Sequence record: MK562502
Source of the DNA: Shigella phage KPS64
Length of the DNA stretch: 64,000 nt
Reading direction: 5' to 3' (one strand)
Below are positions 38,967 through 62,171 of this stretch, one piece after another. Position 1 is the stretch's first letter; each line of letters begins with the position of its first letter. Under the pieces are notes generated by a model, which saw only the letters and a list, made by a program, of their open reading frames with translations, was not told the origin of the DNA and ran no database searches. A program made the position numbers and the translations under genes.

Positions 38967-40382
38967 TTACCAATCGTAGCGTTCAACCATTACTGCTTTG
39001 AGCATTACGCTGATAGGGTCAAACTTCTCACCACCAAGCAAAGCTTTTAAAGTGGCTGGAGAGAAACCAGATACCATCGCTACACCGTTATCCTTTACAG
39101 ACACTTCGCAAGTACCGTTACGGTTTGCTAAGTACCAGAATACCAGTTGTGGCATCTCATATCCAGCTTTCTTGTACTTTTCTTGAATTGCTTCAAAGTT
39201 AGTACGACCATCTGCTCCATCAACCTGATTAAACTGCATATCAGAGAAGATGATAAGCTTACTAGGCATCTCTTTCTGAGTCAAGTTGTTTTTAACACCA
39301 ATCTCAAGGATTCTTGCAAAAGCAGCTTGTAGGTCAGTTGAACCATACTCTACATGACTCTTCACTTGACGTAAGCGAGTCTGCAAATCACCACTCAATG
39401 TGATGAAGTGAGGTCTGCTAGAGTAAACCATCAATTCATCTTTAAAGCAACCTGTGTTACGTTCTGAAACGTACAGGGCTAAAGATACACCAATGTCTAG
39501 CGCTGTAACAGAACCATGTCGCTCCCAAGTCATAGAGGAAGATACATCTGCCATGCACAGAATGTTTTCACCATCTTTCATCCAGTTTGGTAAAGCTTTC
39601 CACTGTTCATTTGCAACGGTTGCATTACCGTAACCAACTGACTTTGTAATGTCATAAGGGTAGACTGCACCAGCATTAATCTTTGTCTCACCTTTAGTCA
39701 GTGCTGCAACGTATGCTGCATAACGCTCACCATCTTTACGACTGAAGAGTTTTTGATAACGTGCAGCAGCCAGTGAAGGAAGCTTGCTGTAATCAATCTC
39801 TCCAAACTCGTTTGCTGAAATCTTTTGTTCAACAGTGTCGGACAGTGCTGACAGAAGAACTCGATACTGCTTCTCTGAAAGATTTGCAAACTTACAGAAA
39901 CGACGAACAAAACGCATATGTCGTGATTTTACTCGTGGTAACCACTTTGCTGCCAGAGCCGATGTTGCAGGGTCTAACAGTGCCGATTCTAAATGCTTGA
40001 AAGCATCTGTTTCATAACGTGTACCAACAAAGATTTTAAAGTCATCATAACGACCTAAATCAGAAATCTTGTCCATGATACGTAACACTTGGAACTCATC
40101 AAGAATCCCGTCAGAGATTGCTTTAGTAAGAGTATAACGGAACGCTTTACGCTCACCCATACCTTCTCGTGCATCTCGCATATGTAACAGGATTCGAACT
40201 GCTACATCAATATCTTCTCGCATTGCCTTGTAAAACAAGTTTGGAAGAACTTCTACATTTGTTCTGCTTGAACCAGCAGCTTTGTAGAAATCTACCAGTG
40301 CAGACATTGAAGAGGTGTGGTTAACAGCACCGTTTTCAGTTAAACCTGCATGTAAATGCGAGTGCTTAAATAATTCGCTCAT
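38967..40382 (-). CDS. vWA-domain protein with MIDAS motif; possibly TROVE/Ro60-like (471 aa)
   Basis: CMADVSSSMTW matches a DxSxS MIDAS motif at about residue 280; helical N-terminal half; adjacent to tRNA array. Confidence 0.45.
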   Translation of the reverse strand: MSELFKHSHLHAGLTENGAVNHTSSMSALVDFYKAAGSSRTNVEVLPNLFYKAMREDIDVAVRILLHMRDAREGMGERKAFRYTLTKAISDGILDEFQVLRIMDKISDLGRYDDFKIFVGTRYETDAFKHLESALLDPATSALAAKWLPRVKSRHMRFVRRFCKFANLSEKQYRVLLSALSDTVEQKISANEFGEIDYSKLPSLAAARYQKLFSRKDGERYAAYVAALTKGETKINAGAVYPYDITKSVGYGNATVANEQWKALPNWMKDGENILCMADVSSSMTWERHGSVTALDIGVSLALYVSERNTGCFKDELMVYSSRPHFITLSGDLQTRLRQVKSHVEYGSTDLQAAFARILEIGVKNNLTQKEMPSKLIIFSDMQFNQVDGADGRTNFEAIQEKYKKAGYEMPQLVFWYLANRNGTCEVSVKDNGVAMVSGFSPATLKALLGGEKFDPISVMLKAVMVERYDW

Positions 40383-57925: not shown

Positions 57926-58118
57926 ACCTGCACAAACTGAAAATGAATTTTCCCTTTGGAGTCCAACTGCATCTGCACAGATTGAAAATGAAAAACCCCT
58001 TTGGAGTCTAAACCTGCACGTTTTGAAAATGAATTTTCCCTTTGGAGTCCAGCTAAAGAAATCTGTCCAGAGTTCTATGCAACTATACCTGCACAAATTT
58101 GAAATGAAAAAGCCCTCC
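57926..58118. repeat. about four tandem copies of a 40-42-bp unit (CCTGCACA..TGAAAATGAA..CCCTTTGGAGTC)
   Basis: Direct repeats read at 57926, 57968, 58012, 58087. Confidence 0.6.
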
Positions 58119-58178
58119 TTACCTGAGATTTAAAACTCAAACTTTGGAGGGCTTGTCTATGTCTATCTAGGTGACTTA

Positions 58179-58973
58179 TTAGTTACGTGCTTCAACATAG
58201 TTTACGTTTTCATGTGTGATATAATCTTCTGCAAACTCTTCTGTAGTCGCATTTATATATACACTTGCATCATCGCCAAACGTTACCGCTCTGTGGTGGT
58301 GGCCTTGTAACGGGTGGGTAACTTGAGCGTTACTTCGATTGTACTTCTCAACCGGAGGGTAACTGGTGTGTACCTTGCCATTACGCTTCACCTTGAGGGT
58401 AACTTTATCCTTGCCTACCACAGCAACACCATCAAAGTATTGAGGCTCACTGAAGTTCTCCCAACCAGTAACAGGGCTAGTCAACTGACTGTACATCTTA
58501 TCTTCATAGACATACATATATACGTCAACATCTTTCATGGTCTGGTTAATAATGGACAGCACAGCCATGCTATCAAGACCACCAATCCCTGCACCAATCA
58601 TCGGAAGTCCAACCTTCTTAAGTTGGTTAACTTTACAGTAGTTGTTAAGACGCTGTAAAGCTGCTTCTAAGGCGTTGTATCGTGCATCTTTGCCAGTGAT
58701 AACCTGAGTGTAAAGGTTAGCAATTCGACCCTGCTTCAAACGTGCTACAGAGATGTTACCAAGCATTAGATGCTTAGGGTTATGGTTTTCACCACCTACT
58801 GTAGCATAAACTTCAGCGTCAGTTTCATAAGCTTTTGGGTAGCGTTTAGCAATTGTTGCTGCGATACCTGCACCCATCAAGTTCATGCAGTTACAACCGT
58901 GACCAATGATATCAAACTTCTTACCATCAAAGTCTTTAAAGATATCACCTTTAATAATTTTTACGATACCCAT
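58179..58973 (-). CDS. macro-domain protein (ADP-ribose binding/processing) with C-terminal extension (264 aa)
   Basis: IIKGDIFKDFDG...IIGHGCNCMNLMGAGIAATIAKRYP and VGLPMIGAGIGGLD macro-domain motifs; start set to ATG at 58973 after GGGAG. Confidence 0.55.
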   Translation of the reverse strand: MGIVKIIKGDIFKDFDGKKFDIIGHGCNCMNLMGAGIAATIAKRYPKAYETDAEVYATVGGENHNPKHLMLGNISVARLKQGRIANLYTQVITGKDARYNALEAALQRLNNYCKVNQLKKVGLPMIGAGIGGLDSMAVLSIINQTMKDVDVYMYVYEDKMYSQLTSPVTGWENFSEPQYFDGVAVVGKDKVTLKVKRNGKVHTSYPPVEKYNRSNAQVTHPLQGHHHRAVTFGDDASVYINATTEEFAEDYITHENVNYVEARN

Positions 58974-58974
58974 A

Positions 58975-59175
58975 TTAGTAATGCTCCCAACGTTCGTTAT
59001 CTTCAGATGGTTTAACTCGGTTACCTTCATGGTCTACCCATAAAGCACCGCAACCTTCACAGATTACTGGCATTGCTGAACCAGCTTCAAATTCTGCCTT
59101 TGTAAAGAGACCTTTTAAGTCTCCTGTATCTTTTCCAAACATCTCAACAGAACACTTAGTGCAGAAATCAGCCAT
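58975..59175 (-). CDS. small zinc-ribbon protein (66 aa)
   Basis: CTKCS ... CEGCG cysteine pairs; stop 1 nt before macro-domain start. Confidence 0.4.
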   Translation of the reverse strand: MADFCTKCSVEMFGKDTGDLKGLFTKAEFEAGSAMPVICEGCGALWVDHEGNRVKPSEDNERWEHY

Positions 59176-61475: not shown

Positions 61476-62171
61476 TCAGTTTTTAACAAGCATTGTTTTG
61501 ATGTGTGGTAAGATTCTTTCAACCTTTGCCACGTTCTTCACTGTATCTTCTATAAAGCATACTACATCATAGTAAGGTAGAATGCAAGACTGAAGCATAC
61601 GAACTTTCAAACTTTCTGCACTAATCTCATTGTCACCAAATCCACGCATAAACAGTAGGAAATCACTGTCTACATTCTCATTCAGGAAAAGATGTGTGAC
61701 AACTCTTTGTGATTCACCACGAGCAGTTAAGAATCCTATATCAGCATTTCTTGATATACCACACAGGATGTTAAAAACATATGTTGGCTTAGCTCTGCGA
61801 GAGTCTACCAAGTTAGTATACTGTGAGTAAGTACCGTCATCTAACAGAGTTGCATTAAGTTTCTTGTCAAAGCTTGTAAGAACACCATCAATGTCTGCTA
61901 AGACCATTTTACGTTTTTCTTCCAAGTTCTTTGCAACCAAGATAAGGCTGTTACGACCAACATATACAGTTTTACCTGTTAGCAAATCCTGACAAGGAAT
62001 CTGTGTCTTTGTTGAGTGGAAGTCTTCAAAGCTACACACAACATTTCTTGCTGTATCTGCAAAGTCAGCTTTAGCAATATCTGACCAACTTGCAGAACTG
62101 ATATCTAAATCAAGTGGCTTGATATCATAAGCATGACACAGAACCATGTCAAATTGTTTTGATTCGCTCAT
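61476..62171 (-). CDS. HAD-superfamily phosphatase/nucleotidase-like protein (231 aa)
   Basis: Motif I-like VLADIDGVLTSF (DxDGxL). Confidence 0.45.
   Translation of the reverse strand: MSESKQFDMVLCHAYDIKPLDLDISSASWSDIAKADFADTARNVVCSFEDFHSTKTQIPCQDLLTGKTVYVGRNSLILVAKNLEEKRKMVLADIDGVLTSFDKKLNATLLDDGTYSQYTNLVDSRRAKPTYVFNILCGISRNADIGFLTARGESQRVVTHLFLNENVDSDFLLFMRGFGDNEISAESLKVRMLQSCILPYYDVVCFIEDTVKNVAKVERILPHIKTMLVKN

What the first reader, a model, noticed from the sequence alone, without database searches (positions are those of the whole stretch)
58179..58973. Macro-domain protein: candidate ADP-ribosylation reversal or nucleotide-signal interference factor
The N-terminal 170 aa carry the two glycine-rich signature segments of macro domains, followed by a 100-aa extension of unknown function. 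Macro domains bind or hydrolyse ADP-ribose adducts; in a phage this is a plausible counter to host ADP-ribosylating defences such as DarT-type toxins, or a way to degrade ADP-ribose-derived signals.
Basis: partly seen in the sequence, partly recalled or inferred. Interest (0 to 1): 0.6.

Follow-up and report, generated by a model that had tools for sequence, protein, structure and literature searches.

The report
Phage macrodomain enzyme, likely anti-DarT
This gene of a FelixO1-like phage really does encode a macrodomain (ADP-ribose-removing) enzyme; it is a relative of a T4 protein recently shown to protect that phage from the bacterial DarTG2 defence, and it carries an extra tail domain of unknown function.

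Summary
Window 58179-58973 (minus strand) is a 264-aa gene. Residues 1-157 form a macrodomain: Pfam Macro scores above its curated cut-off, the AlphaFold model has pLDDT 91, and TM-scores are 0.88 to TARG1 and 0.84 to DarG.

The window belongs to a Mooglevirus/Ounavirinae phage. The gene is already annotated in relatives as 'phosphatase' or 'macro domain-containing protein'.

The domain belongs to the TARG1/DarG/Poa1p (ALC1-like) class. An invariant glutamine (NLYTQ90) sits where TARG1 and DarG have their catalytic lysine. The same is true of Streptomyces SCO6735, which removes ADP-ribose from thymidine in DNA, and of T4 Tk.4.

Tk.4 is 40% identical to this protein (E 9e-20). A 2025 preprint names it AdfM and shows genetically that T4 needs it to resist DarTG2.

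My best explanation is an orphan DarG-like DNA ADP-ribosyl-glycohydrolase that counters DarT2. This rests on homology and is untested in this lineage.

The C-terminal ~105 aa form a beta-rich domain found only in Ounavirinae-type macro proteins. It has no fold or sequence relatives and evolves 2-3 times faster than the macrodomain. Its role is unknown.

Verdict: an ordinary, essentially known kind with one lineage-specific twist, of modest interest.

The parts
58179..58973 (-). Coding sequence of the 264-aa two-domain protein (stop codon 58179-58181)
   Evidence: ORF list. Start chosen from the RBS, the homologue N-termini and the Michonne gp097 annotation. PHROG 335 matches over residues 1-263, E 4e-107.
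58984..58988 (-). Shine-Dalgarno GGGAG, 10 nt before the ATG. It lies inside the end of the upstream gene (stop 58975-58977, 1 nt before the ATG), so translational coupling is likely.
   Evidence: Read directly from the sequence. An RBS is annotated at the equivalent place in Michonne.
58503..58973 (-). Macrodomain, residues 1-157 (ALC1-like / TARG1-DarG-Poa1p class)
   Evidence: Pfam Macro, PDB profile hits, the AF2 model and Foldseek TM 0.84-0.88.
58860..58901 (-). H25-G-C-N28-C-M-N-L-M-G-A-G-I-A38: catalytic-loop His/Asn and the first Gly-rich (phosphate-binding) loop
   Evidence: H25, G26, N28, G36 and A38 are invariant in 33 homologues. By numbering and spacing, N28 corresponds to the Asn whose mutation reduces or nearly abolishes activity in SCO6735 (N27S) and PhiKZ AdfM (N23A).
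58704..58718 (-). N86-L-Y-T-Q90 motif. Q90 occupies the position of catalytic Lys84 of TARG1 and Lys80 of DarG.
   Evidence: N86, T89 and Q90 are invariant. The HMM alignment puts NLYTQ on TARG1 YLITK. T4 Tk.4 carries the identical NLYTQ. SCO6735 has Gln85 at this position and Q85A is dead.
58572..58604 (-). P124-M-I-G-A-G-I-G-G-L-D134: second Gly-rich (diphosphate-binding) loop
   Evidence: P124, G127 and G129 are invariant. It aligns with TARG1 PRIGCGLDRL, PhiKZ PPLGCANGGLD and T4 PRIGAGIGKGN.
58182..58502 (-). C-terminal orphan domain, residues 158-264: six or seven beta-strands plus one helix, function unknown
58105..58154 (-). Intrinsic-terminator-like hairpin (AAGCCCUCC...GGAGGGCUU followed by UUUUU) about 25 nt after the stop. 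It probably ends the transcription unit.
   Evidence: RNA fold gives -22.6 kcal/mol, z -3.4 against shuffles. The simple scan missed it because of its long interrupted loop.

Best explanation
The gene encodes an 'orphan antitoxin'-type macrodomain ADP-ribosyl-glycohydrolase of the AdfM (T4 Tk.4) family.

Proposed mechanism:
1. When the host's DarT2 toxin is unleashed by infection, it attaches ADP-ribose to N3 of thymidines in TNTC motifs of single-stranded phage DNA. This blocks replication.
2. The phage macrodomain binds the ADP-ribose through its two glycine-rich loops.
3. N28 holds Q90 in place. Q90 positions the distal ribose, and a water-mediated, SCO6735-like mechanism (not the lysine mechanism) cleaves the ribose-thymine bond.
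4. Intact DNA is restored and free ADP-ribose is released.

What is shown here: macro fold, class, conserved active-site residues, homology to Tk.4, no adjacent toxin, no DarG-like C-terminal domain.

What is inferred: the substrate (T-ADPr in ssDNA) and the biological role (anti-DarTG2).

The C-terminal domain of about 105 aa is specific to the Ounavirinae lineage and its role is unknown. It may be a fast-evolving partner-binding or stabilising module.
For: - The macro fold and family are established.
- The best defence-related models are DarG: NCBIfam NF048014 at E 9e-15 and PADLOC DarG at 3.9e-15, in both cases over the macro part only.
- BLASTP to T4 Tk.4 gives 40% identity over 136 aa, E 9e-20, with identical HGCNC, NLYTQ and P-x-IGAGIG motifs. 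Both proteins fall in PHROG 335.
- In a transposon screen, tk.4 is the single T4 gene that becomes essential on DarTG2. A clean knockout sensitises T4, and the gene was named adfM (preprint 10.1101/2025.11.20.689424).
- This protein scores higher on the DarG model (54.7 bits) than Tk.4 does (30.3 bits).
- A glutamine at the catalytic-lysine position is compatible with DNA de-ADP-ribosylation. SCO6735 (Gln85) efficiently cleaves T-linked ADPr-ssDNA and protects against DarT; Q85A is dead and N27S nearly dead (PMC9411070; also PMC12879935).
- H25, N28 and Q90 are invariant in all 33 homologues.
- A second, lysine-type phage macrodomain (PhiKZ gp104) also removes DarT2 marks (PMC13309987). The strategy therefore recurs in phages.
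- None of the ten neighbouring genes tested, five on each side, hit any Pfam family, so no toxin was detected. This fits an orphan antitoxin.
Against: - There is no experiment on this protein or on any Ounavirinae homologue in the searched literature.
- The T4 evidence is genetic only and comes from a preprint. Identity to Tk.4 is 40%, and macrodomains are notoriously promiscuous in substrate.
- The top Foldseek hit is Poa1p, an ADP-ribose-1''-phosphate phosphatase, and public annotation says 'phosphatase'.
- The catalytic lysine of DarG and TARG1 is absent.
- I could not print the alignment to SCO6735 itself. The Q90 = Gln85 equivalence is transitive, through TARG1 K84 (plus the statement in PMC9411070). 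MAFFT and BLASTP alignments to PhiKZ gp104 are shifted by one residue at this motif.
- The gene appears co-transcribed with the spanin genes (tight packing from 60947 to 58179 between two terminators). Expression timing is therefore unknown and might be late.
- The extra C-terminal domain has no counterpart in Tk.4.
Confidence: 0.6

Rival explanations
1. It is a small-molecule ADP-ribose-1''-phosphate phosphatase (Poa1p-like) or O-acetyl-ADP-ribose deacetylase. This is what the public annotations say. In this reading it clears by-products of RNA repair or NAD metabolism during infection.
For: Poa1p is the best Foldseek hit (E 7e-11) and the best single-sequence PDB hit (E 2e-5), and it shares the H-x-C-N-C motif. 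Sources name cluster members 'phosphatase', 'Poa1p_like' or 'O-acetyl-ADP-ribose deacetylase'. A HAD-type polynucleotide kinase lies 2.5 kb upstream, and this synteny is kept in distant relatives.
Against: Those names are transferred from the domain, not tested. The Poa1p match is strong only at the N-terminus. Poa1p has Ser where this family has the invariant Gln (alignment: lfts against lytq), and its S30 aligns with L32 here. No KptA/Tpt1 or 2H phosphoesterase was seen among the neighbours. The homologue T4 Tk.4 has a defence-specific phenotype.
Confidence: 0.12
2. It removes ADP-ribose from proteins or RNA rather than DNA. Possible targets are marks laid by host defence ADP-ribosyltransferases such as the mRNA-modifying CmdT, or marks that regulate host enzymes.
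For: TARG1 and SCO6735, both close structural relatives, also de-modify proteins. Macrodomains act on the whole range of 1''-linked ADPr conjugates (PMC9503650).
Against: There is no specific evidence for this. The nearest functionally tested phage homologues (T4 Tk.4, PhiKZ gp104) act against DarT2, a DNA modifier. No ART gene was found beside it.
Confidence: 0.13
3. It interferes with ADP-ribose-derived immune signals (Thoeris gcADPR or His-ADPR, or other TIR products) by hydrolysing or sequestering them.
For: Macrodomains associated with TIR systems have been predicted to act on cADPR-type molecules (PMC9503650). The ADP-ribose-binding loops are intact.
Against: The searched literature holds no homology-based or experimental link between this ALC1-like/Tk.4 family and signal degradation. 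The T4 screen hit for tk.4 was specific to DarTG2.
Confidence: 0.08
4. It is a non-catalytic ADP-ribose reader. The loss of the catalytic lysine marks an inactive binding module that the C-terminal domain couples to some other function.
For: The Lys-to-Gln change sits at the TARG1/DarG catalytic position. An unexplained extra domain is present.
Against: SCO6735, with the same Gln, is a highly active hydrolase and needs that Gln. H25, N28 and Q90 are invariant across 33 diverse homologues, including single-domain ones. This points to selection on catalysis.
Confidence: 0.05

Closest known systems
T4 Tk.4 = AdfM (anti-DarT factor, macrodomain), preprint 10.1101/2025.11.20.689424
   Same: Single-gene phage macrodomain with no adjacent toxin. 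It is 40% identical over 136 aa (E 9e-20), carries identical HGCNC, NLYTQ and P-x-IGAGIG motifs, and falls in the same PHROG 335.
   Different: Tk.4 is 155 aa and macro-only. The window protein adds a C-terminal domain of about 105 aa and has GGLD rather than GKGNWD after the second Gly loop. It sits in a different genomic neighbourhood and phage subfamily. Its function is untested here.
Streptomyces coelicolor SCO6735 (PDB 5E3B), a Gln-type ALC1-like macrodomain hydrolase of thymidine-linked ADPr-DNA
   Same: Same macrodomain class (profile E 9e-14). It has His/Asn/Gln where this protein has H25/N28/Q90, and it is a stand-alone antidote to DarT without being a DarG.
   Different: It is a bacterial chromosomal gene. 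The DNA-positioning lysines K34 and K89 are not conserved at the corresponding spacing here (A35 and G94 by spacing, which is inference). It has no C-terminal domain. A direct residue-by-residue alignment could not be printed.
DarG antitoxin of DarTG2 (NCBIfam NF048014; PDB 5M31, 5M3E, 5M3I)
   Same: The macrodomain is homologous (54.7 bits, E 9e-15; TM 0.84). The catalytic-loop Asn and the G-x-G-x-GGLD loop are shared.
   Different: The score is far below the equivalog cut-off of 250. Only model positions 2-153 of 338 match. Lys80 is replaced by Gln, there is no DarT-binding C-terminal domain, and there is no adjacent darT.
PhiKZ gp104 AdfM (PMC13309987)
   Same: A phage-encoded orphan macrodomain, shown biochemically to erase DarT2 marks. 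It is in the same PHROG.
   Different: It is a lysine-type enzyme (FPTKDNWR) and a close DarG relative (137.8 bits on the DarG model). It is only 23% identical to the window protein. It is imported into the phage nucleus.
Human TARG1/OARD1 and yeast Poa1p
   Same: These are the best structural matches (TM 0.88 and 0.77). The H-x-C-N-C motif is shared with Poa1p.
   Different: The TARG1 Lys84/Asp125 dyad is absent (Q90 and G131). The Poa1p residues Ser30 and the Ser at the Q90 position are not conserved. Both are eukaryotic housekeeping enzymes.

Membership tests
Macro domain (Pfam PF01661) | Profile score above the curated gathering threshold | tested here: met
   33.9 bits against a cut-off of 22, E 3.4e-8, residues 25-141 covering profile positions 2-117 of 118.
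Macro domain (Pfam PF01661) | Three-layer alpha/beta/alpha macro fold | tested here: met
   AF2 pLDDT 91.1. Foldseek TM is 0.88 to TARG1, 0.84 to DarG and 0.77 to Poa1p, with 246 PDB hits at E<=1e-3, the top 50 all macrodomains or macrodomain-scaffold designs.
Macro domain (Pfam PF01661) | Two glycine-rich ADP-ribose/diphosphate-binding loops | tested here: met
   MGAGIA (33-38) and PMIGAGIGG (124-132). G36, A38, P124, G127 and G129 are invariant in 33 sequences.
ALC1-like class, TARG1/DarG lysine-type hydrolases | Closest sequence and structure relatives are TARG1, DarG and Poa1p | tested here: met
ALC1-like class, TARG1/DarG lysine-type hydrolases | Catalytic lysine (TARG1 K84 / DarG K80) | tested here: not met
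   The HMM alignment places invariant Q90 on K84. TARG1 D125 aligns with G131.
Gln-type ALC1-like DNA-ADPr hydrolases (SCO6735-like) | Gln at the lysine position, held by the catalytic-loop Asn, with a nearby His | tested here: met
   H25, N28 and Q90 are invariant. Equivalence to SCO6735 H24/N27/Q85 rests on identical spacing, on TARG1 as the bridge and on the paper's statement. A direct alignment was not displayed.
Gln-type ALC1-like DNA-ADPr hydrolases (SCO6735-like) | Hydrolysis of thymidine-linked ADP-ribose on ssDNA | not testable with these tools
   Needs a biochemical assay.
DarG antitoxin (NCBIfam NF048014 equivalog) | Full-length match above the cut-off, including the C-terminal DarT-binding domain | tested here: not met
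   54.7 bits against a cut-off of 250. Only model positions 2-153 of 338 are matched. The C-terminal domain has no relatives outside its own family.
DarG antitoxin (NCBIfam NF048014 equivalog) | Adjacent darT toxin gene | tested here: not met
   The ten flanking ORFs have no Pfam hits at all and belong to unknown-function PHROGs. The setting is a phage genome.
AdfM (T4 Tk.4-type phage anti-DarTG2 macrodomain) | Significant homology to Tk.4 with the same active-site motifs | tested here: met
   40% identity, E 9e-20. HGCNC, NLYTQ and P-x-IGAGIG are shared, and both are in PHROG 335.
AdfM (T4 Tk.4-type phage anti-DarTG2 macrodomain) | Phage-encoded, stand-alone (orphan) gene | tested here: met
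AdfM (T4 Tk.4-type phage anti-DarTG2 macrodomain) | Required for phage growth on a DarTG2 host, or neutralises DarT2 | not testable with these tools
   Needs genetics. No paper in the library tests an Ounavirinae homologue.

The most novel reading that the evidence does not exclude
The fast-evolving, lineage-restricted C-terminal domain may be a second, non-enzymatic counter-defence module. One possibility is that it binds and blocks DarT2 directly, which would make it a convergent analogue of DarG's C-terminal domain or of ICP1 AdfB. Another is that it tethers the enzyme to the phage replisome or to ssDNA. Either way, Ounavirinae would have independently rebuilt a complete two-pronged 'DarG' from an orphan macrodomain plus a new fold.
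Probability: 0.15. Interest if true: 0.55.

Novelty: new variant of a known kind. Interest (0 to 1): 0.33.

Why it matters
If confirmed, AdfM-type anti-DarTG2 activity would extend from T-even and nucleus-forming jumbo phages to the FelixO1-like phages. These are widely used against Salmonella, E. coli, Shigella and Citrobacter. It would help predict their host range on DarTG2-carrying strains.

It would also add a second natural example, after SCO6735, of the glutamine-type mechanism for DNA de-ADP-ribosylation.

The orphan C-terminal domain is the only really open question. As a whole, though, the finding is an expected and already annotated class of phage gene: about 41% of myoviruses encode a macrodomain (PMC9503650).

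Tried and rejected
- **Exhaustive profile search of the C-terminal domain** (1.84 billion representatives). The only true hits were macro fusions and one fragment. Weak multi-repeat hits (E 1e-10 to 1e-3) turned out to be PQQ/BamB-type beta-propeller blades. I read this as motif-level beta-hairpin resemblance, not homology.
- **Charge analysis of the C-terminal domain**. Net charge ranges from -5 to +6 among homologues. There is no consistent signature of DNA binding or of a DNA mimic, so neither idea is supported.
- **Neighbouring genes.** All belong to unknown-function PHROGs with no Pfam hits, so context gives no functional clue. Ten large ORFs elsewhere in the window are structural or nucleotide-metabolism genes, with no NAD-salvage genes among them.
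- **Longer start at 59030.** Rejected because of the poor RBS, the overlap with the upstream gene and the homologue N-termini.
- **Printing an SCO6735 alignment.** I tried through PDB searches with this protein, the family profile and Tk.4. It was never among the five alignments shown.
- **Literature on Ounavirinae macro proteins or DarTG versus Felixounavirus.** Nothing relevant was found.
- **DarG membership.** Rejected: no lysine, no C-terminal DarT-binding domain, no darT.

Full report
**1. The observation**

The window is a FelixO1-like myovirus of the Ounavirinae, genus Mooglevirus. A 3.5-kb stretch around the finding is 96% identical to Shigella phage ESh20 and 92% identical to Citrobacter phages Michonne, Mordin and Maleficent.

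The finding lies on the minus strand. The mechanical ORF is 58179..59030, 283 aa. The reasons are:
- GGGAG lies 10 nt upstream (read).
- The upstream gene stops 1 nt before this ATG.
- All homologues start M-[GAS]-I-V-K.
- Michonne gp097 is annotated with exactly this length.

The gene is the last of eight tightly packed minus-strand genes (60947 down to 58179). That block starts with the two spanin genes. It is bounded by a terminator-like hairpin upstream at 60990-60969 and another downstream at 58154-58105 (-22.6 kcal/mol, z -3.4).

**2. It is a macrodomain**

- Pfam Macro scores 33.9 bits against a curated cut-off of 22 (E 3.4e-8), over residues 25-141.
- A profile of 33 homologues against PDB sequences finds TARG1 (5e-17), M. 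tuberculosis DarG (2e-15), Poa1p (1e-14), BT1257 and SCO6735 (9e-14).
- The AlphaFold2 model built on that alignment has pLDDT 91.1 and pTM 0.88.
- Foldseek against PDB gives Poa1p at E 7e-11, TARG1 at TM 0.88 and T. aquaticus DarG at TM 0.84. In each case only the N-terminal ~160 residues align.

**3. Which kind of macrodomain**

All close relatives belong to the ALC1-like class (TARG1, DarG, Poa1p, SCO6735). The invariant residues of the phage family are H25, G26, N28, G36, A38, N86, T89, Q90, P124, G127 and G129.

The HMM alignment puts NLYTQ90 on TARG1 YLITK84. The catalytic lysine of TARG1 and DarG is therefore replaced by an invariant glutamine, and TARG1 Asp125 aligns with a glycine.

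This does not mean the enzyme is inactive. SCO6735 of Streptomyces coelicolor has Gln85 'equivalent to Lys84 in TARG1 and Lys80 in DarG'. It cleaves thymidine-linked ADP-ribose from ssDNA faster than DarG and protects cells from DarT. Q85A or Q85E kills it, and N27S nearly does (PMC9411070). PMC12879935 confirms the activity with synthetic substrates.

The window protein has His/Asn/Gln at the same spacing (H25/N28 against H24/N27).

One caveat applies. I could not get the tool to print the SCO6735 alignment itself, so the equivalence is transitive through TARG1. In addition, plain BLASTP and MAFFT alignments to the lysine-type PhiKZ protein are shifted by one residue at this motif.

**4. Relation to known phage counter-defence proteins**

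A tblastn search of 50,697 phage records finds homologues of the macro part in 2,791 records. Only 255 of these cover at least 80% of the query, that is, include the C-terminal domain.

Among the macro-only hits is T4 tk.4. Its product is 40% identical to the window protein over 136 aa (E 9e-20) and has the same HGCNC, NLYTQ and P-x-IGAGIG motifs.

The HIDEN-SEQ preprint (10.1101/2025.11.20.689424) reports three things about tk.4. It is the single T4 gene that becomes essential on a DarTG2 host. A clean knockout sensitises T4. The gene is named adfM, 'anti-DarT factor macrodomain'.

Independently, PhiKZ gp104, also called AdfM, removes DarT2-installed ADP-ribose from DNA in vitro and rescues DarT2 toxicity (PMC13309987). 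That protein is lysine-type (FPTKDNWR) and only 23% identical to ours.

All three proteins fall in PHROG 335. On NCBI's DarG model the scores are 137.8 bits for PhiKZ, 54.7 for the window protein and 30.3 for T4 Tk.4. All match the macro half only and lie far below the equivalog cut-off of 250. PADLOC's DarG model gives E 3.9e-15.

None of the ten flanking ORFs hits any Pfam family, so no adjacent toxin was detected. The gene is thus an 'orphan antitoxin'-like enzyme. The same logic has been described for the NADAR protein AdfN against DarTG1 (PMC11825919).

**5. The C-terminal domain**

Residues 158-264 fold confidently into six or seven strands plus a helix. pLDDT is 80-92 in the full model and 79.5 when modelled alone. 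Nothing known matches it:
- Pfam gives no hit.
- Foldseek against viral predicted structures returns only its own family, in phage SUSP2.
- An exhaustive profile search of 1.84 billion representatives returns only macro fusions and one fragment. It also returns weak repeat hits to PQQ-type propeller blades, which I regard as hairpin-motif resemblance.

The divergent two-domain homologues lie in ~86-kb and 32-kb contigs with the same synteny: a lysozyme-like gene, a HAD polynucleotide kinase, several small genes, then the macro gene. The architecture is therefore confined to Ounavirinae-like phages.

The domain diverges 2-3 times faster than the macrodomain. Identities for macro versus C-terminal parts are 90 vs 66%, 50 vs 25% and 52 vs 13%. 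Only one Pro and one Gly are invariant. Net charge varies from -5 to +6, which argues against a conserved DNA-binding or DNA-mimic surface. Its function is open.

**6. Most likely mechanism**

The steps, with their basis, are:
1. The protein binds ADP-ribose through the two Gly loops. This is shown by homology and conservation.
2. N28 fixes Q90, which positions the distal ribose for water-mediated cleavage. This is inferred from SCO6735.
3. The substrate is ADP-ribose on thymidine N3 in ssDNA, installed by DarT2. This is inferred from T4 Tk.4 genetics and from SCO6735 and PhiKZ biochemistry.
4. Removing the mark restores replication of phage DNA.

I put this at 0.6. The rivals are:
- Appr-1''-p phosphatase or OAADPr deacetylase, the public annotation (0.12).
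- Protein or RNA de-ADP-ribosylation (0.13).
- Interference with ADPr-derived signals (0.08).
- A non-catalytic reader (0.05).

Expression timing is a point against. The gene seems to share a transcription unit with the spanins, and an anti-DarT enzyme should be present during replication.

**7. Novelty and verdict**

Phage macrodomains are common: 41% of myoviruses carry one (PMC9503650). This very protein family is already annotated in GenBank as 'macro domain-containing protein', 'phosphatase', 'Poa1p-like' or 'O-acetyl-ADP-ribose deacetylase'.

The anti-DarTG2 role of the family has been published for T4 (as a preprint) and for PhiKZ. Not described in the library I could search are (a) any test of the Ounavirinae proteins and (b) their extra orphan domain.

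I file it as a new variant of a known kind, with modest interest (0.33).

Noticed in passing
window 57926-58051 (extending to about 58100), between the macro gene's terminator and the next minus-strand gene: Three good copies, plus a degenerate fourth, of a ~45-nt tandem repeat (CTGCACAAAnTGAAAATGAAnnnnCCCTTTGGAGTC). It occurs nowhere else in the window (0 expected by chance). Mordin annotates a repeat_region under the matched stretch, and Michonne annotates a small plus-strand CDS in this interval. Function unknown.
   Followed up: partly
window 58975-59175 (-): A 66-aa ORF immediately upstream of the macro gene, with its stop 1 nt before the macro start. It has two Cys pairs (CTKC ... CEGC), suggesting a small zinc ribbon. 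It belongs to PHROG 2210 (unknown function) and has no Pfam hit. It is probably translationally coupled to the macro gene.
   Followed up: partly
related proteins P0063, P0008, P0036, P0077: Some Ounavirinae-like contigs carry damaged alleles. P0063 is an in-frame deletion joining the first Gly loop to the second (NLMGAGI|GGLD); it removes the macro core but keeps the C-terminal domain. P0008 is frameshifted after the macrodomain. P0036 and P0077 are C-terminal fragments. The gene may be dispensable, the C-terminal domain may be kept on its own, or these may be assembly errors.
   Followed up: no
window 58182-58502 (-), residues about 170-215: The first half of the C-terminal domain (SEPQYFDGVAVVGKDKVTLKVKRNGKVHTSY) weakly resembles single blades of PQQ/BamB-type beta-propellers (SSPAVANGVVYVGSDDGNVYALNAATGAKLWSY). 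The E-values of 1e-10 to 1e-3 are inflated by multiple repeats in the targets.
   Followed up: partly
window 60364-60336, 60262-60234, 59551-59523 (-): Three promoter-like sites with a perfect TTGACA -35 box and 17-nt spacing lie inside the coding regions of the operon upstream of the macro gene. They could be internal promoters that uncouple it from the spanin genes. The excess over shuffles is modest (16 found against 10.5 +/- 3.4).
   Followed up: no
window 61476-62171 (-) and loci L003, L005: A HAD-type polynucleotide kinase/phosphatase, preceded by a lysozyme-like gene, stays in conserved synteny 2-3 kb upstream of the macro gene even in homologues only ~50% identical. This may hint at an RNA-repair link, or it may simply be a conserved gene order.
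   Followed up: partly
window 38967-40382 (-): A 471-aa protein with DUF2828 and DUF7788 domains (E 9e-27 and 6e-44). It is an uncharacterised conserved protein in the phage and unrelated to this finding.
   Followed up: no
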